Sequence record: PQ850611.1
DNA from: Escherichia phage JohannBuxtorf_Bas84
Length of the DNA: 44,189 nucleotides
Strand: one strand, 5' to 3'
Part shown: piece by piece, positions 1,948 to 24,209 of the stretch
Layout of the letters: the number at the start of each line of letters is the position of its first letter
How positions within the stretch are numbered: the stretch's first letter is position 1
Made by a program: the position numbers and the translations under genes
The notes under the pieces: model-generated
The model's input: only the letters and a program-made list of their open reading frames with translations
Told to the model about the DNA's origin: nothing
The model's database searches: none

Positions 1948-3468
1948 ATGACCGTTAACGTTGACAACCAGCACCCGCTCTATGCGCGCATTGCGCCAGA
2001 GTGGAAGATGATCCGCGATTGTGTAGCAGGGGAGCGCGCCGTGAAGGCGTGCGGCCCTTTGTACCTGCCTCATCCCGCCAGTGGCGACAATACTGACCCG
2101 AAAGCACGGGCGCGGTATAAGGCGTACAAGCAACGCGCGGTATTCCTGAACGCCACCGCCCGCACACTAAACGCGCTGTTAGGCGTCGCCTTTGCAAAAC
2201 CTGTAAGTCTGGACCTTTCCGGGGCGATGGCTGACCTGATTGACGACGTAGACGGCAGCGGTATGCCATTGCCGCAACTTCTGCGCGGTGCTATGTCGGA
2301 AGTTCTGCAATCGGGACGCGCGGGCTTTATGGTGGATTACGACCGCCAGGCTAACTTTGATGAACTGGGTAACGTAGTGCCACAGACAGCCGCCGAGATG
2401 GCGGCACACCGACCGCTTATCCGCCTGTATACGGCAGAGCAGATCATCAACTGGCGGCAGACCCACGGCGTCGATACGCTAATTGTGCTGAAGGAAACGG
2501 ACGAAATCAGCACCGAAGACCCGGACGATTTCGCAAACCACGAAGTAACAATCTGGACCGAGCTTCGCATGATTGACGGCAAGGCACACGCCCGCCGCTG
2601 GTTTTACAACGCGGACACGTCCGAAGTGAAGATGGACTTGCCGCGAGGCTTCACCAGAACCGATCTTGTGCCGTTGGTGGATGCTTCCGGTAATGCGCTT
2701 ACGCAACTACCGTTTTGCTGGTGTGGCGCGGTGGACAACAACGCAACGCCTGACGCCGCTCCGCTGGCGGATATCGCATCCATCAACATTAAGCACTACA
2801 ACGCCGAAGCGGACGTCGCCGAGATTGCGCACATCGTGGGGCAACCTACCCTGGTGGCAACTGGCTTGACTCAATCATGGGCTGACAAGAACCTGAAGGG
2901 CGGCATCGCGCTCGGAGCGACTAAGGGCGTTATTCTGGGTCAGAACATGGACGCTAAACTGATTCAGGCCGAGGAGCGCAACTTGTCTGTTGCGCTGTGT
3001 GAGCGACGCGAATTGCAAATGGCTAAACTAGGCGCGGCCCTGGTTGAGAAGGGGACTGCACCTAAGACGGCAACGGAAGCGGCCTACGATGCGCAGACTG
3101 ATAACAGTATCCTGTCGCTTATTGCTGGTAACGTTGAGAAGGCTTTCAACCGCGCGCTGCAAATCGTCCAACTCTTCACCGGTGACACCGCCGACCAGCG
3201 TGTGACGCTGAATAAGTTCTACACCGAGATCACGGTTGATGCGCAGCTTATGACCGCGATGATGTCGGGTGTGCAGACTGGCACGGTCCGCCTGGCTGAT
3301 TTCATCAAGTGGATGATGGCGCAGGGCGTCATCGACGACTCGCAAACCGTCGAGCAGGTGGAAGACGAATTGCGAAATCAGAATCCATTGCCTCAAATGT
3401 CCCCCGATGCGGTAGAATCTACCGAAGAAGACCCGGACAAGGTAGCGGACAATGGCGAAGACAATTAA
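1948..3468 (+). CDS. portal protein
   Basis: 506 aa ORF directly after large terminase with RBS AGGAA; acidic C-terminus; synteny. Confidence 0.75.
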   Translation: MTVNVDNQHPLYARIAPEWKMIRDCVAGERAVKACGPLYLPHPASGDNTDPKARARYKAYKQRAVFLNATARTLNALLGVAFAKPVSLDLSGAMADLIDDVDGSGMPLPQLLRGAMSEVLQSGRAGFMVDYDRQANFDELGNVVPQTAAEMAAHRPLIRLYTAEQIINWRQTHGVDTLIVLKETDEISTEDPDDFANHEVTIWTELRMIDGKAHARRWFYNADTSEVKMDLPRGFTRTDLVPLVDASGNALTQLPFCWCGAVDNNATPDAAPLADIASINIKHYNAEADVAEIAHIVGQPTLVATGLTQSWADKNLKGGIALGATKGVILGQNMDAKLIQAEERNLSVALCERRELQMAKLGAALVEKGTAPKTATEAAYDAQTDNSILSLIAGNVEKAFNRALQIVQLFTGDTADQRVTLNKFYTEITVDAQLMTAMMSGVQTGTVRLADFIKWMMAQGVIDDSQTVEQVEDELRNQNPLPQMSPDAVESTEEDPDKVADNGEDN

Positions 3469-16489: not shown

Positions 16490-17097
16490 CCACGTTTAAA
16501 TTGTACGGCGTCTTAGGGCGTCGTTTTGGTAAAGTGCATAAGCTGGACTGCTTCACACCGGGAGAAGGCATCACCGGCCTGTGTGTGAAGTTGCCAGGGT
16601 TACAAGACTTTTTAATGTCGGCCCACCTGGACAATATGATGTTCAAGGTGCGCAAAGGCAACCACACGATGACCGGTTATGATGAGCTTGGCGAGTTCCA
16701 CGGCGACCGCGTCGTTACCATCGCGCCGGTTATGACGGGGGCAAAAAGCGGACTGGGCCAATTGCTGGCGGGTGTCGCGATTGTAGTGGCGTCGTTCTAT
16801 ACTGGCGGACTTGCTACTGCCGCTTTCGGGGCTTCGGCTGCAACCGCTGCCGCTATCGGTACGGCTACATTTTCGTTTGGCATGTCGCTTGCGCTGGGAG
16901 GTGCTATGCAATTGCTGTCGCCGCAGCCGAAAGGATTGCAGACCCGGCAGGACGTGGATAACAAAGCGTCGTATGCGTTCGGCGGCCCAGTAAACACGAC
17001 CGCGCAAGGTACGGCGCTTGGTGTATTATGGGGCGAGCGTGAGATCGGCGGCGCTATTATTTCAGCCGGAATCGTAACCGAGGATTTGAACGAATGA
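16480..17097 (+). CDS. tail assembly protein (lambda gpI-like)
   Basis: 205 aa; start overlaps upstream stop; hydrophobic Gly/Ala-rich C-terminal half; synteny. Confidence 0.55.
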   Translation: MAMTTFKLYGVLGRRFGKVHKLDCFTPGEGITGLCVKLPGLQDFLMSAHLDNMMFKVRKGNHTMTGYDELGEFHGDRVVTIAPVMTGAKSGLGQLLAGVAIVVASFYTGGLATAAFGASAATAAAIGTATFSFGMSLALGGAMQLLSPQPKGLQTRQDVDNKASYAFGGPVNTTAQGTALGVLWGEREIGGAIISAGIVTEDLNE

Positions 17098-20000
17098 CGA
17101 TTGTCTATGACGTCACAGGCCATAAAGGCGGCGGTGGCAAACAGCACACCCCACAGGAGACACCCGATAGCCTGCATTCGCTGGCTAAAATCCGCATCTT
17201 GCTTGCGCTGGGAGAAGGTGAGTTCGAAGGTATTCCAGACCCTAACGAATTACGGCGGCGCGTATATCTGGACGGAACACCGATCCAGAATGCAGACCTG
17301 TCTGAAAACTTCCCAGGCGCGCGTGTGGAGTTCCGCCCCGGAACACAGCACCAGGATGTGATCCACGGATTTTCAGCGGTGGAAAGTGAGCAATCTGTCG
17401 GCGTAAAACTGGAAAACGGCACGCCGTGGGTGCGCCAGATTAACGACACCAGTTTGGACGCCGTGCGCATTCGCATCGGCATTCCGGCCCTGTACACAAA
17501 CGAAGATAATGGCGACCTGGTGGGCGGGCGCATCGACTATAAGATCGTTGTGTATACGGATAACGCGGACCCGCGTGAGTTCAGATTCGCCGCCGTTGGT
17601 AAAACAATGTCGCTGTATGAGCGCGACCACCGCATCGAATTACCTCCGAACGTTAACACCGGCTGGCGCGTGGAGGTGCACCGCATAACGGCAGACTCCA
17701 CATCGGCGAAAGTGGTTAATGATATCCAGGTGCAATCCATCACTGAGATTATTGACGCCCGCCTGCGTTACCCGCTAACCGCGCTGTTGTTCGTGGAGTT
17801 CGACGCTAAAGCGTTCCAGAACATCCCGCGCGTGTCCATTAAGTGCAAAGGTCGCAAGGTGTTGATCCCGAACAACTACGACCCGATTAACCATACCTAT
17901 TCGGGCGACTGGGACGGCACGTTTAAACGCGCATGGACGGATAACCCAGCGTGGCACTGGTACGATATTTGTATTACTGAGCGCTTCGGCCTCGGGCGTA
18001 GGATCAAGCCGCAAATGCTGAACCGGTACGCGCTATACCAGATTGCGCAGCGCTGCGACCAGATGGTAAGCGACGGCAACGGCGGGCAGGAAATCCGATT
18101 TAAGAATGATATGTACATCCAGTCGCAGACCGACGCCTGGACCGTGCTTAAGGATCTAGCTGCCATCTTTGCCGGTATGACCTGGTGGGGAAACCAGATG
18201 TTGAATATCGTAAGCGACCAGCCGGTCGCAGCGGTATCGCACACTATCACCAACGCCTCGGTTATTGATGGTAGATTCGACTACGCATCGGGTAGCCAGA
18301 AAACTCGCTATTCCACGTTCGCGGTAGCATACGGCAACCCGAAGAACCACTACGAAGACGCCATCGCAACGGGCCAGCGTGTCGAACTGGTGCGCCGCCA
18401 TAAAATCAACCGCCTTGATATTACGGCGATCGGCTGTACGCGTGAATCAGAAGCGCAACGCCGCGGTCACTGGGCGCTAATCTCCAACCAGCTTGACCAG
18501 CAAGTTAGCTTTAAGGTTGGCATGGAGGGACTTTTCTTTATTCCGGGTAGCGTAGTCGCGATCGCGGATACAAACATTTCTGGCGGCTTCGAGACTCGCG
18601 GCGGTCGCCTGTTGTCGGATCCTGGCACGCGGACGGTGCTGAACACAGACAGCGAAATCACGTTCCGCCCTGGCGATAAATTCCTGGTACGCACCGATAG
18701 CGGTAATGTGGAGACTCGCGAGATCGCCAGCGTCAACGGCAACAAGGTTACGCTAAAAACCGCACTGGATGCCGACCCGATTCCGGACCAGCCGTTTTGC
18801 GTTGATGGCGACGATATCCAGTTGCAGAAGTTCCGCATCACCGACCTGGAATATGACGACTCTACCAGCACTTTTTCAGTGCGCGGGATCGAGTACAACG
18901 ATAGCAAATACGATGCCGTTGATAATGGCGCTCGTCTTGACCCAGGCATCTTTACGCAAGTGCCTGACGGCGTAATGAAGGGGCCGGAGTCCGTGACCAT
19001 CACCCCGTCGCAGATTTCATCGCAAGGCCAGCTAATCACCAACGTGGATATTGTTTTCCCGCCGGTGAAGGATGCCGTTGTATATGAAATCCAGTGGCGG
19101 CGTACCAGCCTGCAGAATATGGAAATCCAGTGGGGTAACGACTGGGTGAACATCCCCCGCACGGCATCGAACGGTGCGCACATCCCGAACGTGTTTTCCG
19201 GAAACTATCAGGCGCGCGTTCGCGCAATCGGTATGGGCGAAATTTCATCCCCGTGGGTGTCGTCTGCCATCACGCCGATCGAAGGTCGTCTCGGTGGGCT
19301 TAACGCGCCTATCATCACAAACGCTATTCCGGGCCTCCACCAAATTTTGTGGAAGTGGAACCACAACAACGCCGCGACGGATATCTCTTACACCGAGCTT
19401 GAAGTGCGCAAGCGGGGTGAAACGGAATGGAAGTTCTTGACCAACGTCCCATATCCGGGGTCGGACTATGCGCAAACGTCGCTGGAGTTCGGGATCTACC
19501 AGCAGTTGCGCGCCCGCGTAGCGGATAAAATCGGCAACCTGTCGGACTGGTCCGCCCCGTTTGAAGGCCAGGTGAGTGACAAAGTTGACGAGTACATGAA
19601 GGGGTTGGACGACGAGTTCTTGACTTCCGAGGACGGTAAACGCTTCCAGGAAGCGATCGACACCATGCCGCAAGGCATTTATGAAGCCATGCTCACAGAC
19701 GCGCAGCAATTGTTTAACGCCCGCGCCGAGTACCAGGGGATTTACGCAGAAATCAAGGTGGCGTATAACGTGGCTGCGGATGCCCACAAGGCGGTAGCGC
19801 AACTTGAGACGTTGATCGGCACGCGCCTTGACGATGCGGAAGCGGCGATCCACACGTTGCAGACCGCGCAAAGCACGCACGAACAAGCGTTCGCCCAGTA
19901 CCAACAAACTGTTGCCGCTAAGTTCGGGGAGCAGGAAGCTGCCATCCAGCAGGTACAAACGGCAACGGCAGACGTAGCGGGCGCGCTGGCGGAGTACAAG

Positions 20001-20540
20001 ACCCAAGTAGCGGCGCAGTTCGGGCAGCAGTCCGCAGCTATCGAGCAGAAGATGACGTCTTCGTTTAACCATACTGGCGGTAGTGCCACATACAGCCTTA
20101 AGGCTGGCGTGACGTATAACGGGACTTACTATGATGCCGGTATGCAGCTTTCAGTTGTGGCGGAAGGTGGCGCGGTTAAATCCCGCATCGCGTTCAAGGC
20201 GGACCAGTTCTACATCATGCACCCGTCGAATGGGTCGCTTTCGTCCGCGTTTATCGTCGACGGCGGGCAGGTGTACATCGACACGGCACGTATCAAGAAC
20301 GCGTCAATCAACTTCGCACAGATCACGGACACGCTGCAATCGAATAACTGGAATCCGGGTAGCAGCGGCTGGCGTATCGCGAAGGATGGCGGGGCGGAGT
20401 TCAACAACGTAACGGTACGCGGCAACCTGTTCGCGACCACGGGTAACTTCGGATTCTCCGGCGGGTCGGTACAGATCGACGCAACCGGCATTAACGTGCC
20501 ATTACCTGGAGGGGGTAGGGTGAAAGTTGGGACGTGGTAA
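17094..20540 (+). CDS. tail tip / host specificity protein (lambda gpJ-like)
   Basis: 1148 aa; ATGA overlap with gpI-like gene; size, position and C-terminal Ala/Gln-rich repeats consistent with J-like central tail fibre. Confidence 0.8.
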   Translation: MTIVYDVTGHKGGGGKQHTPQETPDSLHSLAKIRILLALGEGEFEGIPDPNELRRRVYLDGTPIQNADLSENFPGARVEFRPGTQHQDVIHGFSAVESEQSVGVKLENGTPWVRQINDTSLDAVRIRIGIPALYTNEDNGDLVGGRIDYKIVVYTDNADPREFRFAAVGKTMSLYERDHRIELPPNVNTGWRVEVHRITADSTSAKVVNDIQVQSITEIIDARLRYPLTALLFVEFDAKAFQNIPRVSIKCKGRKVLIPNNYDPINHTYSGDWDGTFKRAWTDNPAWHWYDICITERFGLGRRIKPQMLNRYALYQIAQRCDQMVSDGNGGQEIRFKNDMYIQSQTDAWTVLKDLAAIFAGMTWWGNQMLNIVSDQPVAAVSHTITNASVIDGRFDYASGSQKTRYSTFAVAYGNPKNHYEDAIATGQRVELVRRHKINRLDITAIGCTRESEAQRRGHWALISNQLDQQVSFKVGMEGLFFIPGSVVAIADTNISGGFETRGGRLLSDPGTRTVLNTDSEITFRPGDKFLVRTDSGNVETREIASVNGNKVTLKTALDADPIPDQPFCVDGDDIQLQKFRITDLEYDDSTSTFSVRGIEYNDSKYDAVDNGARLDPGIFTQVPDGVMKGPESVTITPSQISSQGQLITNVDIVFPPVKDAVVYEIQWRRTSLQNMEIQWGNDWVNIPRTASNGAHIPNVFSGNYQARVRAIGMGEISSPWVSSAITPIEGRLGGLNAPIITNAIPGLHQILWKWNHNNAATDISYTELEVRKRGETEWKFLTNVPYPGSDYAQTSLEFGIYQQLRARVADKIGNLSDWSAPFEGQVSDKVDEYMKGLDDEFLTSEDGKRFQEAIDTMPQGIYEAMLTDAQQLFNARAEYQGIYAEIKVAYNVAADAHKAVAQLETLIGTRLDDAEAAIHTLQTAQSTHEQAFAQYQQTVAAKFGEQEAAIQQVQTATADVAGALAEYKTQVAAQFGQQSAAIEQKMTSSFNHTGGSATYSLKAGVTYNGTYYDAGMQLSVVAEGGAVKSRIAFKADQFYIMHPSNGSLSSAFIVDGGQVYIDTARIKNASINFAQITDTLQSNNWNPGSSGWRIAKDGGAEFNNVTVRGNLFATTGNFGFSGGSVQIDATGINVPLPGGGRVKVGTW

Positions 20541-20545
20541 ATGCG

Positions 20546-20567
20546 AAGGGGCCATCCGGCCCCTTTT
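20546..20567. terminator. bidirectional terminator between convergent J-like gene and minus-strand gene
   Basis: stem ggggcc/ggcccc, 4-nt loop, T4 on plus strand; stop codon of minus gene overlaps the T tract. Confidence 0.65.
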
Positions 20568-21531
20568 AATAGATGTTAGGAATGACGAGTAACGGGGTGG
20601 GTACTGCAATATTTTTACCCGGCATTTGGAATTGTTGCCGTGAGTAGTTGCCAATGACGCGGTTTTTAGCGATGCGCACATTATTGCCCGCCATTCGTAT
20701 ACCGTTCATGCGTACGTGGTTATAGCCGCCGTTGTTCTCAATGAGCGCGCCGGTGTATGAAAGTTGGATCAGGCTGTTGCCAATGTACTGATCGCCGCCG
20801 CCGATATTAATAAGGCGGTCATAAACAAACGGCTTATTCACCGTTGAGAACGTGACCTGACCCTGGTTGTTTGTCATGGTGATGCCGTTCCCAGGGGTGG
20901 GAGGCGTATTGTTGAATATAACCAGGTCCATTTCAACAGCCGCGCCTACGTCGTCAATCCCGCCATAGGACGCATTACGGACGATAATACTTCCGCCATC
21001 GAAGCCGACAGAAACGTTTCCGTCGTCCCAGCGCGCGAACGGGACGCCGCTTACTGGTAACGGCATACTTCCGTTCACCCACACGCGCTGCGCATATTGG
21101 CAGGTCATCAGCCTGGATACGTTCGATATCGCGGTGAAGTCCGTCGAGTTCGCCACCAGTAAGCCCGCGTTGCGCGAACCTACCGGCAGCACTTCCATAA
21201 TCACCCCGCCCCATGATGGAAGCCCGCTATATGCGTTATACGCGTCCTCACCGCGCAAGGTGATTCCGCTATCCCCGTTACGCTGTATTGACGTTATGTA
21301 AAACGGATCTGGCAAGACCAGTGTCTGGTCGAAGACTTCCATCACTTCAACGGGACTTGTGAGCGCGACGACCAGATCTGACCCCGGCGTTAGCGGAGTG
21401 TTAATAGTTAGCGTCTTATCAGACTGGCAGCGCTGATAGAATGATGTACAGAATGACGGCGCGCGTAGCCCGGCGGTTATCTCCATAACCGGACGCCCGT
21501 CGTTGTAGTCGATTAATATTCCAGCGCCCAT
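20566..21531 (-). CDS. hypothetical Gly/Asn-rich protein co-transcribed with lipoprotein (alternative GTG start 21540)
   Basis: ~321 aa; ATG 3 nt after stop of upstream lipoprotein gene; no plus-strand ORF in this interval; repeated G-x-N/V-rich segments suggest beta-rich fold. Confidence 0.55.
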   Translation of the reverse strand: MGAGILIDYNDGRPVMEITAGLRAPSFCTSFYQRCQSDKTLTINTPLTPGSDLVVALTSPVEVMEVFDQTLVLPDPFYITSIQRNGDSGITLRGEDAYNAYSGLPSWGGVIMEVLPVGSRNAGLLVANSTDFTAISNVSRLMTCQYAQRVWVNGSMPLPVSGVPFARWDDGNVSVGFDGGSIIVRNASYGGIDDVGAAVEMDLVIFNNTPPTPGNGITMTNNQGQVTFSTVNKPFVYDRLINIGGGDQYIGNSLIQLSYTGALIENNGGYNHVRMNGIRMAGNNVRIAKNRVIGNYSRQQFQMPGKNIAVPTPLLVIPNIY

Positions 21532-21533
21532 TA

Positions 21534-21755
21534 TTACCACTCCCGTGATTTAACTGAAACAGTGCCGGAAAAATTGCCGTCACTATCGGCGGACAGACCA
21601 GTGAAGCGCATGTCCACATCCCCGGAAGGGACTTTTTGCCCGTCAACGTAACGCAACATGCAGCTACCGTACGCAACCGTAATGCAATCGCCGTTGTTGC
21701 GTTCCACAGCACAACCGGACAAAAGAACCACACAAATCATAATTAAAGTTTTCAT
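21534..21755 (-). CDS. small lipoprotein (candidate Cor/Llp-type superinfection exclusion protein)
   Basis: 73 aa from ATG with strong RBS AGGAGA; signal peptide MKTLIMICVVLLSGC with lipobox LSGC; minus-strand orientation inside tail module. Confidence 0.55.
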   Translation of the reverse strand: MKTLIMICVVLLSGCAVERNNGDCITVAYGSCMLRYVDGQKVPSGDVDMRFTGLSADSDGNFSGTVSVKSREW

Positions 21756-21835
21756 GGTATCATCTCCTATATTTGGTCGAGTTTTAGTATTACACCGCTC
21801 GATCAAGAATGCAACCAATTTACGAGGATTTAGCT

Positions 21836-23632
21836 ATGGCAGCGGGTACTCTATCCGTAACGAATAACAGCAAGGCGGTTGTAGGGGCCGGCACAACGTT
21901 TACCGCGTTTAACGCTGGCGACTTCTTAACGCTGGTGGTAGGACAAGTCCCCTACACCGTAGCTATCGCGTCCGTTGAAAGCGACACCGCTCTTACGCTG
22001 GTGCTGCCGTTCGACGGCCCGACGGCAACCGGCCTCGCGTGGGATGGCGTTAAGCGCGATACCATGTCACTGGCGACGATGGGCGTAACCGTCCAGGCAC
22101 AGAAAGCATTGCGCTTGATGATCGCAGATGAAAACAACTGGCGTGCAATCTTCGGCGACGCTGAAGAAATCACCGTGACGTTACCTAACGGGCAGGTTAT
22201 GCAGGGAATGTCATGGGGCTATCTGTCGCAGTTGATGAAACAGATCGACCCCGTTGAGATGCGCAACCTGCAACAACAAGCCGCCGCATCTGAAGCAGCA
22301 GCGCAGGGATACCGGAACGAGGCCGAAGGCTTCAAGACCGAGACGGCTGGGATTCGCGATGCCACCGATGCCATCAGGACGCAAACCGATCAGATTAAAT
22401 CTGATACGCAGGCCATAAAAGACCAGACCGATCAGATTAAATCTGATACGCAGGCCATAAAAGACCAGACCAACCAGATTAAGACGGATACCGGCGTTAT
22501 TCGCGACGAAGCCAATACCGCGAAGACGGACGCGCAATCCGCCCGCGATGCTGCGCTGGGATACCGGAACGAGGCCGAACAGTTCAAAAATGAGATCGAC
22601 CCGTCGAAACTTCTGGCAAAGGCCAACAACCTTAGCGACGTTGCCGACCCCGCGGCAGCGCGCGACCACTTAGGCATCGGGCCTGACGACACCCTTACAT
22701 TAGGGAACCTGGTAACAACAGGCAACATATCCACGACAGGCGGCATATCCGCGGGCCGCAACACGTGGGATGGGTCTAACTGGGGGAGCCAGGGACTTCT
22801 CGCCTCATTAGCGATCCTATCCCCGGACGGAAACTCAGCCCCAGGCTTATACGTGCGAAAATCCAACGGCGACAGCGGATATGCGGGGGAATGGTTGTAT
22901 TACGAGAACAGTATCAGTTGGGCTACTAACGCGCGTATTGCGGGCTTTCAGTTCCGGTCCCCTAAAGGCGCGATGGGGTATAGCCAGCTATGGTCAGAGG
23001 CTGTGGTGCGTGCGGACGACTTCACGGCACAGAATGGCACGGAAAACTATAAGTCGTTAATCGCAGGGGCCGCTGTGACGCAAGACATAGGATTCGCGGG
23101 CGGTGTCTCGTTCGGGATAATGACAACTGGCATAAACAACTGGCCCCGGGCGCAGATCTCGATCGGCACAGCAGACCGTGACGCCGCTGGGAATATGGCT
23201 TCGCAGATGCACATCCGCTTTAATGAATATGGGCAGATTTCATACGTAGGGCCACTGGGGGCGGGGTCGTTCCAGCAAGTACCTGCGTCGGATCGCAACC
23301 TGAAGCATGACATTGCCGATGACGCAAGCAGCACCGCCTACGACAATATCAAGGCTTTGCGGTTCCGCACGTTCGTATACAACAACGATGAACAGGAACG
23401 GCAGCGTCGCGGTATTATTGCGCAGGAAGTGGAAGAAATCGACCCGCTGTATGTGAAGCACCGCGTGTATAACAATCACGAATTAAATGGGCCGCTGGTG
23501 CACCAGCTTGAACTGGATACGACGCCGCTGTTACTCGACACTATGCGAGCGTTGCAGGATACGATTAAGCAGGTGGAGGAGTTGAAGGCGGAGATCGCGG
23601 CGTTGAAGCAGGCGGAAGAGTTGAAGAAATAG
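21836..23632 (+). CDS. tail fibre protein with C-terminal intramolecular chaperone (peptidase S74-like) domain
   Basis: RBS GAGGA 7 nt upstream of ATG 21836; 14-residue repeats TDQIKSDTQAIKDQ; C-terminal segment NLKHDIADDASSTAYDNIKALRFRTFVYNNDEQERQRRGIIAQEVEEIDPLYV resembles auto-cleaving chaperone domains of phage fibres. Confidence 0.75.
   Translation: MAAGTLSVTNNSKAVVGAGTTFTAFNAGDFLTLVVGQVPYTVAIASVESDTALTLVLPFDGPTATGLAWDGVKRDTMSLATMGVTVQAQKALRLMIADENNWRAIFGDAEEITVTLPNGQVMQGMSWGYLSQLMKQIDPVEMRNLQQQAAASEAAAQGYRNEAEGFKTETAGIRDATDAIRTQTDQIKSDTQAIKDQTDQIKSDTQAIKDQTNQIKTDTGVIRDEANTAKTDAQSARDAALGYRNEAEQFKNEIDPSKLLAKANNLSDVADPAAARDHLGIGPDDTLTLGNLVTTGNISTTGGISAGRNTWDGSNWGSQGLLASLAILSPDGNSAPGLYVRKSNGDSGYAGEWLYYENSISWATNARIAGFQFRSPKGAMGYSQLWSEAVVRADDFTAQNGTENYKSLIAGAAVTQDIGFAGGVSFGIMTTGINNWPRAQISIGTADRDAAGNMASQMHIRFNEYGQISYVGPLGAGSFQQVPASDRNLKHDIADDASSTAYDNIKALRFRTFVYNNDEQERQRRGIIAQEVEEIDPLYVKHRVYNNHELNGPLVHQLELDTTPLLLDTMRALQDTIKQVEELKAEIAALKQAEELKK
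22385..22468 (+). repeat. perfect 42-bp tandem duplication inside tail fibre gene
   Basis: units 22385-22426 and 22427-22468 identical, followed by a degenerate third unit; encode TDQIKSDTQAIKDQ twice. Confidence 0.9.
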
Positions 23633-23657: not shown

Positions 23658-24209
23658 CTAGTTTGAGTTTTCCCAGTCCATTTTGCGCCGCACCAGCGGG
23701 CTTTCGTAATATTCCTTTCCTTCCACTTCCGCCAAAGTCCAGTCGTTCACAATCACGTATGGCTCCGCGATATCCTCAATTACGCCGTGCGCGCTTTGCG
23801 GCCCTAACGACACACCAACCAGGATAACACCGGCAACGCGACGGGTCAGATATTCGCGAGCGCAACGTGCATCAACCAGCCCACGACGGATGCCGCTGGT
23901 GGCCTTAACCTCGTAGGTCCATACGGCATCGACCACATGCTCGCGGAAGTCGGGACCGGACTTAACCTTGCGTTTACCTACCATGATAATATCGCCGCGG
24001 TCTATGGTATTGGCGCTAAACAGGCCGGTACGCATCAGTAAGCCTTGCGGGATACAACTACGCCCGCCTGCAAACATTTCGCCCAGCACACCGACCAGTC
24101 GGCTTTGCTTGCACGCGTCAGACTTTAAGCGCCACTGGTCAAACTCGATGCTTGCTATCATTGCCGCCAGGTGGAATTGTTTACCAGATATTTCATATTC
24201 GCCGTACAT
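23658..24209 (-). CDS. hypothetical protein, possible PD-(D/E)XK-fold nuclease
   Basis: 183 aa, RBS GAGGA; segment GPDFREHVVDAVWTYEVKATSG fits a PD-x(n)-E-x-K pattern; last gene of the minus-strand block. Confidence 0.45.
   Translation of the reverse strand: MYGEYEISGKQFHLAAMIASIEFDQWRLKSDACKQSRLVGVLGEMFAGGRSCIPQGLLMRTGLFSANTIDRGDIIMVGKRKVKSGPDFREHVVDAVWTYEVKATSGIRRGLVDARCAREYLTRRVAGVILVGVSLGPQSAHGVIEDIAEPYVIVNDWTLAEVEGKEYYESPLVRRKMDWENSN

What the first reader, a model, noticed from the sequence alone, without database searches (positions are those of the whole stretch)
20566..21755. Minus-strand two-gene insert inside the tail module: small lipoprotein followed by a 321-aa Gly/Asn-rich protein
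Between the J-like tail tip gene and the tail fibre gene, two genes run in the opposite direction with their own RBS, a tandem-motif-containing upstream region and a bidirectional terminator. The first encodes a classic lipoprotein precursor (lipobox LSGC); this placement and size are typical of receptor-masking superinfection-exclusion lipoproteins (T5 Llp, phi80/N15 Cor). The second has no signal peptide and no motif I recognise; its repetitive G-x-N-rich composition suggests a beta-helical fold. Co-transcription of an exclusion lipoprotein with a large partner is not a pattern I can assign to a known system.
Basis: partly seen in the sequence, partly recalled or inferred. Interest (0 to 1): 0.6.

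Follow-up and report, generated by a model that had tools for sequence, protein, structure and literature searches.

The report
Known LptD receptor-binding and exclusion gene pair
The two minus-strand genes are the phage's receptor-recognition cassette: a tail-tip protein that binds the bacterial outer-membrane protein LptD, and a small lipoprotein that blocks LptD in infected cells. The cassette was already described and solved by cryo-EM in a near-identical phage, so the finding is real but ordinary.

Summary
Two co-oriented minus-strand genes, a 73-aa lipoprotein (21534-21755) and a 321-aa protein (20566-21531), lie between the gpJ-like tail-tip gene and the lateral tail-fibre gene of a Dhillonvirus-type E. 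coli siphophage.

The lipoprotein is a superinfection-exclusion (SE) factor. It is 96% identical to Oekolampad bas18_0026 and homologous to Rtp45 (PDB 9RPS) and to the experimentally excluding Lpp021 of mEp021.

The 321-aa "partner" is not an unassigned defence component. It is 88.5% identical over its full length to the Oekolampad (Bas18) receptor-binding protein (RBP). That protein's cryo-EM structure on the extracellular face of the LptDE lipopolysaccharide translocon is in the PDB (9RPT/9RPW/9RQI; Dunbar et al., PNAS 2025).

The pair is therefore the LptD allele of the "bona fide RBP locus downstream of gpJ" (Maffei 2021). It is a functional analogue, not a sequence homologue, of T5 pb5/Llp.

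The G-x-N repeat and tandem-motif claims did not hold. The beta-helix suggestion could not be tested here and conflicts with a published beta-sandwich description.

Verdict: already known, low interest.

The parts
17094..20540 (+). gpJ-like central tail-tip protein (1148 aa). Its distal end is the inferred attachment point for the separately encoded RBP.
   Evidence: Pfam FNIII-A_GpJ, Phage-tail_3 and Phage_Tail_Tip, and phrog_31. It is 96% identical to Oekolampad bas18_0024, 'J-like tail tip protein'.
20545..20566 (.). GC-rich hairpin between the convergent gpJ and RBP genes. It is a probable two-way intrinsic terminator and overlaps the RBP stop codon.
   Evidence: Folds at -16.9 kcal/mol on the + strand (then UUUU) and at -15.7 kcal/mol on the - strand. 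Terminators are annotated at the equivalent site in WFI, SU57 and mEp021. The consensus scan did not call it, probably because the stem, if extended, takes up part of the T run (this reason is my inference).
20566..21531 (-). Terminal receptor-binding protein (321 aa, Pfam DUF6453), LptD-specific allele and orthologue of Oekolampad RBP bas18_0025.
   Evidence: PDB 9rpt_C/9rpw/9rqi at E 4e-190 over residues 1-321. Identity is 284/321 = 88.5%, and the LptD-contacting Gln299 is conserved. PF20051 at 3.5e-120. Same position and strand as in Oekolampad.
21534..21755 (-). Cognate superinfection-exclusion lipoprotein (73-aa precursor; mature form starts at lipidated Cys15). Homologue of Rtp45, SE_Oeko and Lpp021.
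   Evidence: PF24052 Phage_lipoprotein at 2.5e-21. PDB 9rps_D (Rtp45) at E 1.9e-7, with Cys24/Cys32 aligned to the Rtp45 disulfide Cys30/Cys38. 96% identical to bas18_0026 and 43% to mEp021 gp81. Lipobox LSGC with +2 Ala.
21756..21835 (.). 80-bp divergent intergenic control region between the lipoprotein gene and the lateral tail-fibre gene. It is conserved among Dhillonviruses whatever their RBP allele and contains an imperfect inverted repeat, GGTCGAG-N16-CTCGATC.
   Evidence: Alignment with Oekolampad, RuthEpting and KarlBarth shows 92% mean column identity over the 188 aligned columns, which also include flanking coding sequence, and one compensatory change in the repeat. The fold is not better than shuffles. 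No consensus promoter was found.
21836..23632 (+). Lateral tail-fibre protein for the primary (glycan) receptor, with a C-terminal intramolecular chaperone. It marks the downstream boundary of the RBP cassette.
   Evidence: phrog_1980 and Peptidase_S74. The start at 21836 (SD GAGGA) is inferred from Oekolampad bas18_0027, which begins 80 nt from the lipoprotein start. The ORF listing gives an earlier ATG at 21809.

Best explanation
The window is a Dhillonvirus-type virulent E. coli siphophage. The minus-strand pair is its terminal-receptor recognition cassette, the LptD allele of the 'bona fide RBP locus' that small siphoviruses carry directly downstream of gpJ.

The 321-aa DUF6453 protein is made late and is thought to be mounted non-covalently on the distal end of the gpJ-like central fibre. 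After the lateral fibres have dealt with the O-antigen, it inserts its loop-rich tip into the extracellular mouth of an open state of the essential LPS translocon LptDE. This binding commits the phage to irreversible adsorption and DNA ejection.

The upstream 73-aa protein is exported, lipidated at Cys15 and sorted to the inner leaflet of the outer membrane (+2 Ala). There it binds the periplasmic rim of LptD and pushes a hairpin up the lumen. This displaces extracellular loop 4, so the RBP can no longer bind. The result is exclusion of superinfecting LptD-dependent phages and protection of progeny from being wasted on debris of the lysed cell.

**Shown here:** gene structure, orthology, conserved key residues, synteny, purifying selection.

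**Shown elsewhere for orthologues or homologues:** LptD dependence, the RBP-LptDE and SE-LptDE structures, and the exclusion phenotype.

**Inferred:** that this particular allele behaves the same way, attachment to gpJ, co-transcription and timing.
For: **The RBP**
- It matches the Oekolampad RBP chain of PDB 9RPT/9RPW/9RQI at E 4e-190 over its full length, with 88.5% identity and Gln299 conserved.
- The Oekolampad RBP was shown by cryo-EM to bind the extracellular face of LptDE. Oekolampad-resistant LptD point mutants abolish the interaction (PMC12685063).

**Locus architecture**
- The order gpJ(+), RBP(-), lipoprotein(-), lateral fibre(+) is identical to Oekolampad bas18_0024-0027, and gpJ is 96% identical.
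- Bas83 and Bas85, whose locus is about 89% identical in DNA to this one, belong to the Bas83-85 group predicted to be LptD-specific (PMC11990801). Bas83 and Bas84 are also predicted LptD-specific in bioRxiv 10.64898/2026.04.02.716166.
- Alleles of this locus match the determined receptors without exception in the BASEL set (PMC8594841).

**The lipoprotein**
- It carries a lipobox and +2 Ala.
- It is 96% identical to SE_Oeko.
- It is homologous to Rtp45 (PDB 9RPS), with both disulfide cysteines aligned.
- It is 43% identical to Lpp021, which excludes mEp021 and mEp515 when expressed (PMC11893012).

**Other support**
- Purifying selection acts on both genes.
- The mEp021 homologue of the large protein is annotated 'virion structural protein' in a record whose virion proteins were mapped by mass spectrometry.
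- A distant Kuravirus homologue sits inside the tail gene block.
Against: - Nothing was measured for this phage. LptD dependence, virion incorporation of the 321-aa protein and the exclusion phenotype are all transferred from orthologues.
- There are 37 substitutions relative to the Oekolampad RBP, and their positions could not be mapped onto the interface. My single-sequence AF2 model failed at pLDDT 29.
- The SE structure is of Rtp45, reported as only 35% identical to SE_Oeko. SE_Oeko itself could not be expressed by Dunbar et al.
- mEp021 carries a 35%-identical DUF6453 protein and a 43%-identical lipoprotein, yet is reported to need OmpA. Family membership alone therefore may not fix the receptor at low identity.
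- Attachment of the RBP to gpJ is not demonstrated in anything I read.
- No clear promoter was found for the minus-strand pair.
Confidence: 0.9

Rival explanations
1. The two genes form a defensive or 'moron' cassette inserted in the tail module, in which an exclusion lipoprotein acts together with a large non-virion partner of unknown mechanism.
For: PHROGs files the large protein under 'moron, auxiliary metabolic gene and host takeover / membrane protein' (phrog_1265), and several GenBank records copy this label. The pair runs in the opposite orientation to the tail genes.
Against: The large protein is 88.5% identical to a protein shown structurally to bind the extracellular face of the phage's receptor. 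It has no signal peptide or transmembrane segment, so it cannot reach the envelope from inside the cell. Neither protein has a PADLOC hit. In Dhillonviruses with other receptor alleles, such as KarlBarth, the larger genes are on the + strand and only the lipoprotein is on the - strand, so the pair is not a fixed two-gene defence unit.
Confidence: 0.03
2. The cassette is an RBP + SE module, but this allele recognises a different or additional outer-membrane receptor rather than LptD.
For: There are 37 amino-acid differences from the Oekolampad RBP. mEp021, which has a DUF6453/lipoprotein pair, is reported to depend on OmpA. Bas01 needs NupG as well as LptD, through a gpJ domain.
Against: 88.5% identity is far above the >30% identity / >99% coverage that defines the LptD-specific family, in which all tested members use LptD. 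Rtp44-type RBPs, only 33% identical to Oekolampad's, still map to LptD. gpJ is 96% identical to Oekolampad's and has no extra C-terminal domain. The contact residue Gln299 is conserved.
Confidence: 0.05
3. The 321-aa protein is a tail-assembly or chaperone-like factor that is not part of the mature virion, as Matusiak et al. suggested for the genes downstream of gpJ in FhuA-type Dhillonviruses.
For: [quoted passage not shown] Virion proteomics for this exact protein was not seen.
Against: That paper analysed a different, non-homologous allele (JLBYU60, FhuA type). The Oekolampad orthologue binds LptDE tightly, with a 1,700 square-angstrom interface, which is not expected of a chaperone.
Confidence: 0.02

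Closest known systems
Oekolampad (Bas18, Dhillonvirus) RBP bas18_0025 and SE lipoprotein bas18_0026; PDB 9RPT/9RPW/9RQI (Dunbar et al., PNAS 2025, PMC12685063)
   Same: Same genus-level genome and the same gene order and strands. The RBP is 88.5% identical over all 321 residues, the lipoprotein 96% and gpJ 96%.
   Different: There are 37 RBP substitutions and 3 lipoprotein substitutions. The lateral tail fibre was not compared in detail. Nothing differs in kind.
Phage Rtp Rtp44 (RBP) / Rtp45 (SE lipoprotein), Drexlerviridae; PDB 9RPS
   Same: The same two protein families and the same position after gpJ. The lipobox Cys and the Cys30-Cys38 disulfide pair of Rtp45 align with Cys15, Cys24 and Cys32 here.
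   Different: Identity is only about 33-35% (reported for Oekolampad against Rtp), and the phage family is different.
Phage T5 pb5 (oad) / Llp acting on FhuA
   Same: The same logic: a dedicated RBP at the tip of the central fibre, plus an adjacent small periplasm-facing outer-membrane lipoprotein that inactivates the same receptor from inside.
   Different: There is no sequence relationship. The receptor is LptDE, not a TonB-dependent transporter. According to PMC12685063, exclusion works by steric displacement of LptD loop EL4 rather than by long-range allostery. Here the SE gene lies directly upstream of the RBP gene on the same strand.
Cor of T1 / phi80 / N15
   Same: A small outer-membrane lipoprotein encoded in the tail region that blocks the phage's own receptor.
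   Different: The only hit to the Cor PHROG (E 0.0012) covers residues 1-30, that is the signal peptide. Cor acts on FhuA. The FhuA-type Dhillonvirus KarlBarth carries a different mature lipoprotein behind an identical signal peptide.
mEp021 gp80 / gp81 (Lpp021), temperate mEpimmI coliphages
   Same: The same pair in the same arrangement after J. gp81 is 43% identical to the lipoprotein and gp80 about 35% identical to the large protein. Lpp021 was shown to exclude its own phage.
   Different: It is a temperate phage. The reported receptor requirement is OmpA, and LptD was not tested.

Membership tests
LptD-specific RBP/SE locus of small siphoviruses (Oekolampad bas18_0025/0026; Rtp44/Rtp45) | Encoded immediately downstream of the gpJ homologue and upstream of the lateral tail-fibre gene | tested here: met
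   gpJ 17094-20540(+), pair 20566-21755(-), fibre from 21836(+). Layout is identical to Oekolampad.
LptD-specific RBP/SE locus of small siphoviruses (Oekolampad bas18_0025/0026; Rtp44/Rtp45) | RBP of about 310-321 aa belonging to the LptD-associated family (>30% identity and >99% coverage to known members; Pfam DUF6453) | tested here: met
   88.5% identity over 321/321 residues to the Oekolampad RBP. PF20051 at E 3.5e-120.
LptD-specific RBP/SE locus of small siphoviruses (Oekolampad bas18_0025/0026; Rtp44/Rtp45) | Adjacent small lipoprotein of the Rtp45 family, with a lipobox and a conserved disulfide pair | tested here: met
   LSG|C lipobox. Cys24/Cys32 align with Rtp45 Cys30/Cys38. 9rps_D at E 1.9e-7, PF24052 at 2.5e-21, and 96% identity to bas18_0026.
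LptD-specific RBP/SE locus of small siphoviruses (Oekolampad bas18_0025/0026; Rtp44/Rtp45) | Infection depends on LptD and the RBP binds LptDE | not testable with these tools
   Transferred from Oekolampad (PMC8594841, PMC12685063). Needs plating on LptD mutants or a binding assay.
LptD-specific RBP/SE locus of small siphoviruses (Oekolampad bas18_0025/0026; Rtp44/Rtp45) | Expression of the lipoprotein excludes phages that use the same receptor | not testable with these tools
   Shown for the 43%-identical Lpp021 (PMC11893012). The structural mechanism is shown for Rtp45 (PMC12685063).
T5 pb5 / Llp | Sequence homology to pb5 or Llp | tested here: not met
   No pb5 or Llp chain appeared among PDB hits at E up to 1 (RBP) or 10 (lipoprotein). 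The only significant Pfam hits are DUF6453 and Phage_lipoprotein, apart from a sub-threshold O_Spanin_T7 match (E 0.032, 14.7 bits against a cutoff of 25, residues 4-21). The pair is a functional analogue only.
Cor (T1/phi80/N15) superinfection-exclusion lipoproteins | Homology of the mature protein to Cor | tested here: not met
   phrog_1119 at E 0.0012, restricted to residues 1-30, the signal peptide.
Beta-helical tailspike | Right-handed parallel beta-helix / pectate-lyase-like domain or a repeat signature | tested here: inconclusive
   No beta-helix Pfam hit. GxN is not enriched and there are no internal repeats. The single-sequence AF2 model is unusable at pLDDT 29. The literature describes a beta-sandwich scaffold for this RBP family.
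Known anti-phage defence systems (PADLOC) | Match to any defence-system protein model | tested here: not met
   No hits for either protein.

The most novel reading that the evidence does not exclude
The DUF6453 RBP and Rtp45-like lipoprotein families reach well beyond the small siphoviruses in which LptD use is established. A linked pair occurs in the temperate phage mEp021, which is reported to be OmpA-dependent. Unlinked distant homologues of both proteins occur in Kuravirus/Gordonclarkvirinae podoviruses: the large protein inside the tail block and the lipoprotein among early genes.

If these also engage LptDE, the essential LPS translocon would be a much more widely used terminal phage receptor than is currently recognised. 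It is systematically missed because knock-out screens cannot test it. For the window itself, the only novelty not excluded is that its 37 RBP substitutions shift the LptD allele or state specificity relative to Oekolampad.
Probability: 0.25. Interest if true: 0.4.

Novelty: already known. Interest (0 to 1): 0.12.

Why it matters
This copy of the cassette matters mainly for annotation. Many database records, and PHROGs itself, label the 321-aa protein 'membrane protein / moron' or 'hypothetical'. It is in fact the determinant of terminal-receptor specificity.

[quoted passage not shown] That prediction is useful for designing phage cocktails, for phage-steering ideas, and for engineering phage-resistant production strains by deleting LptD loop 11.

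It adds no new biology beyond Maffei 2021, Black 2025 and Dunbar 2025.

Tried and rejected
- **Single-sequence AlphaFold2 of the 321-aa protein.** Mean pLDDT was 29 and the model was unusable, so I ran no fold search. I did not spend a large homologue search to build an alignment, because an 88.5%-identical solved structure already settles the identity.
- **Consensus promoter and terminator scan.** It found no credible promoter for the minus-strand pair and did not call the obvious hairpin. Folding showed that the hairpin is real.
- **Search for the 'tandem motif' upstream.** Only chance-level 9-10-nt two-copy repeats turned up, all inside the tail-fibre coding sequence.
- **GxN periodicity test.** Not enriched.
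- **NCBIfam and PADLOC.** No hits.
- **Rfam and tRNA scans of the whole window.** Nothing found.
- **Wietzorrek et al. 2006 (PMC1367250), the original Rtp45 paper.** Not held in the library, so I could not check what it reports about Rtp45; what I use about Rtp45 comes from PMC12685063.
- **Whether mEp021 gp80 itself was detected by mass spectrometry.** I could not confirm this from the text; only the GenBank label 'virion structural protein' supports it.
- **Readings considered and rejected.** A defence system, a Cor or Llp family member, a spanin (a weak O_Spanin_T7 hit at E 0.032 covering only the signal peptide/lipobox region, residues 4-21), and a membrane protein (no transmembrane segment).

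Full report
**What is in the sequence**

The stated coordinates are exact. On the minus strand, a 73-aa ORF (21534-21755) is followed 2 nt later (TAATAATG) by a 321-aa ORF (20566-21531).

The small protein is a textbook lipoprotein precursor. It has Lys2, a hydrophobic core, the lipobox LSG|C with Cys15, Ala at +2, and two further cysteines at positions 24 and 32. The large protein has no signal peptide or hydrophobic segment.

Each gene has a Shine-Dalgarno sequence. Between the convergent gpJ-like gene (17094-20540, +) and the large ORF lies a 9-bp GC-rich hairpin (20545-20566). It folds well on both strands, at -16.9 and -15.7 kcal/mol.

The downstream + strand gene is a lateral tail fibre with a C-terminal Peptidase_S74 chaperone.

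- The 'tandem motif' upstream is not there. The intergenic region is only 80 bp, and the short repeats lie in the fibre coding sequence.
- GxN is not enriched, with 3 observed against 3.2 expected.
- No consensus promoter was found.

**What phage this is**

The region is 95% identical in DNA to the Escherichia phages TH11, TH13 and AV129, and 82-92% identical to many Dhillonvirus genomes. The window length of 44.2 kb fits a whole Dhillonvirus genome. It contains no tRNA and no Rfam family.

**Identity of the 321-aa protein**

It is a full-length member of Pfam DUF6453 (E 3.5e-120). A sequence search of the PDB gave a single hit, 9rpt_C/9rpw/9rqi 'Tail fiber protein', at E 4e-190 and aligned over 1-321 without gaps. 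I counted 284/321 identical residues, or 88.5%.

These entries are the receptor-binding protein of the Dhillonvirus Oekolampad (Bas18) bound to Shigella/E. coli LptDE (Dunbar et al., PNAS 2025, PMC12685063). That paper reports the following:
- The RBP inserts deeply into the extracellular mouth of an open state of the LptD barrel, with an interface of about 1,700 square angstroms.
- Ser350 of LptD EL4 hydrogen-bonds to RBP Gln299, a residue conserved here.
- LptD point mutants selected for Oekolampad resistance abolish binding.

In the Oekolampad genome the gene (bas18_0025) has the same size, strand and neighbours as in the window, and gpJ is 96% identical.

The wider framework is the 'bona fide RBP locus downstream of gpJ' of Maffei et al. 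2021 (PMC8594841). Its alleles match the experimentally determined terminal receptors (FhuA, BtuB, YncD, LptD; LamB and TolC specificity lie in the gpJ C-terminus instead) across Drexlerviridae, Dhillonvirus, Nonagvirus and Seuratvirus. Bas83 and Bas85, whose locus is about 89% identical in DNA to the window's, belong to the Bas83-85 group explicitly predicted to be LptD-specific; Bas83 and Bas84 are also so predicted.

At the protein level, homologues are found in 434 phage records. These include Bas02 JeanPiccard, experimentally LptD-dependent, at 33% identity.

**Identity of the lipoprotein**

It belongs to Pfam PF24052 'Phage lipoprotein family' (2.5e-21) and is 96% identical to Oekolampad bas18_0026, called SE_Oeko by Dunbar et al..

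It hits PDB 9rps_D (Rtp45) at E 1.9e-7. In that alignment the lipobox cysteine and the two disulfide cysteines of Rtp45 (Cys30, Cys38) match Cys15, Cys24 and Cys32.

The cryo-EM structure shows Rtp45 bound at the periplasmic rim of LptD, between LptE and LptM. It sends a hairpin up the lumen and displaces loop EL4 by up to 20 angstroms, which sterically prevents RBP binding.

The lipoprotein is also 43% identical to Lpp021 (gp81) of the temperate phage mEp021. Expression of Lpp021 excluded mEp021 and mEp515 in infection assays (PMC11893012). In mEp021 the same arrangement occurs: J, terminator, DUF6453 gene, lipoprotein gene.

**How it most likely works**

The lateral fibres handle the O-antigen. 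The DUF6453 RBP, carried on the distal end of gpJ (inferred), then binds open LptDE and triggers irreversible adsorption.

In the infected cell the lipoprotein is lipidated and sorted to the outer membrane, where it locks LptD in a conformation that cannot accept the RBP. This excludes superinfecting LptD-dependent phages and protects progeny from adsorbing to debris.

Placing the SE gene directly upstream of the RBP gene, with near-overlapping stop and start codons, fits co-expression. Timing and promoter were not determined.

Both genes are under purifying selection: 113 synonymous against 37 non-synonymous codon differences for the RBP, and 17 against 3 for the lipoprotein.

**Comparison with known systems**

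- **Membership.** The pair meets every sequence-testable criterion of the Oekolampad/Rtp LptD module.
- **T5 pb5/Llp and Cor.** The pair works like these systems but is not related to them by sequence. There are no PDB or Pfam hits to them, and the weak Cor PHROG hit covers only the signal peptide.
- **Defence systems.** Neither protein matches PADLOC or NCBIfam.
- **PHROG label.** The label 'membrane protein / moron' for the large protein is a mis-annotation that has spread into GenBank records.
- **Beta-helix suggestion.** It is not supported. Black et al. (PMC13035648) describe a beta-sandwich scaffold with a pointed, loop-rich tip for this RBP family. My own single-sequence model was uninformative.

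**Verdict**

The interpretation needs correcting: the 'large partner' is the virion receptor-binding protein, so the pair is the known LptD RBP + cognate SE cassette.

The finding is already known and of low interest. The residual uncertainty, about 10%, is whether this allele, with its 37 substitutions, behaves exactly like Oekolampad's. This is testable by plating on LptD loop mutants.

Noticed in passing
window 20566-21755; loci L004 (MZ648214.1 64636-64935) and L005 (NC_070993.1 20456-21490): Kuravirus/Gordonclarkvirinae podoviruses of about 76 kb (IMEP8, Bas88, Bas90, Bas92, SU7, EP335) carry distant homologues of both proteins, but unlinked. A 344-aa DUF6453-like 'membrane protein' sits inside the tail gene block (23-27% identity over 57-80% of the query). 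An Rtp45-like small lipoprotein (about 40% identity) sits among small early genes. This may mean these podoviruses also engage LptD, though I found no report of it in the papers read.
   Followed up: partly
window 21709-21835; L003 (KarlBarth Bas17) 2829-3127: The first 47 nt of the lipoprotein gene (signal peptide up to Cys-Ala) are 100% identical, and the 80-bp intergenic region nearly so, in Dhillonviruses that carry a different, non-homologous RBP allele (KarlBarth; the 47-nt match is also seen in 'rolling'). The mature lipoprotein diverges completely right after the lipobox, so the cassette-exchange breakpoint appears to lie inside the lipoprotein gene. In KarlBarth the two larger genes at this locus are on the + strand and only the lipoprotein is on the - strand.
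   Followed up: partly
window 21756-21835: The intergenic region contains an imperfect inverted repeat, GGTCGAG-N16-CTCGATC, spanning a weak TTGCAT-N17-AATACT promoter-like element. Oekolampad has GGTTGAG/CTCAACC, a compensatory change. The folding energy is not better than shuffles, so its meaning (operator, RNA hairpin or chance) is open.
   Followed up: partly
window 21809 vs 21836: The lateral tail-fibre gene probably starts at 21836 (ATGGCAGCG, SD GAGGA, giving MAAGTLSV...), as annotated in Oekolampad. The upstream in-frame ATG at 21809 given by the mechanical ORF list is probably not the start.
   Followed up: partly
L006 (mEp021 MH706966.1 51741-52894): The temperate phage mEp021 has the same DUF6453 + lipoprotein pair after J (35% and 43% identity) but is reported to be OmpA-dependent, and LptD, being essential, was not tested. 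Either OmpA is an accessory requirement or the DUF6453 family is not restricted to LptD.
   Followed up: no
window 23658-24209 (-): A 183-aa ORF just after the tail fibre on the minus strand matches only phrog_10558 (unknown function, E 1e-106) and has no Pfam hit. Minus-strand hypothetical genes occupy the corresponding position in Oekolampad (bas18_0028) and RuthEpting, but I did not test whether they are homologous to this ORF.
   Followed up: no
search results: Near-identical Dhillonvirus loci are deposited under unlikely host names (Acinetobacter phage NJ01, Campylobacter phages A120/A127/A144, Aeromonas phage SD04). These are probably mislabelled or contaminant E. coli phages.
   Followed up: no
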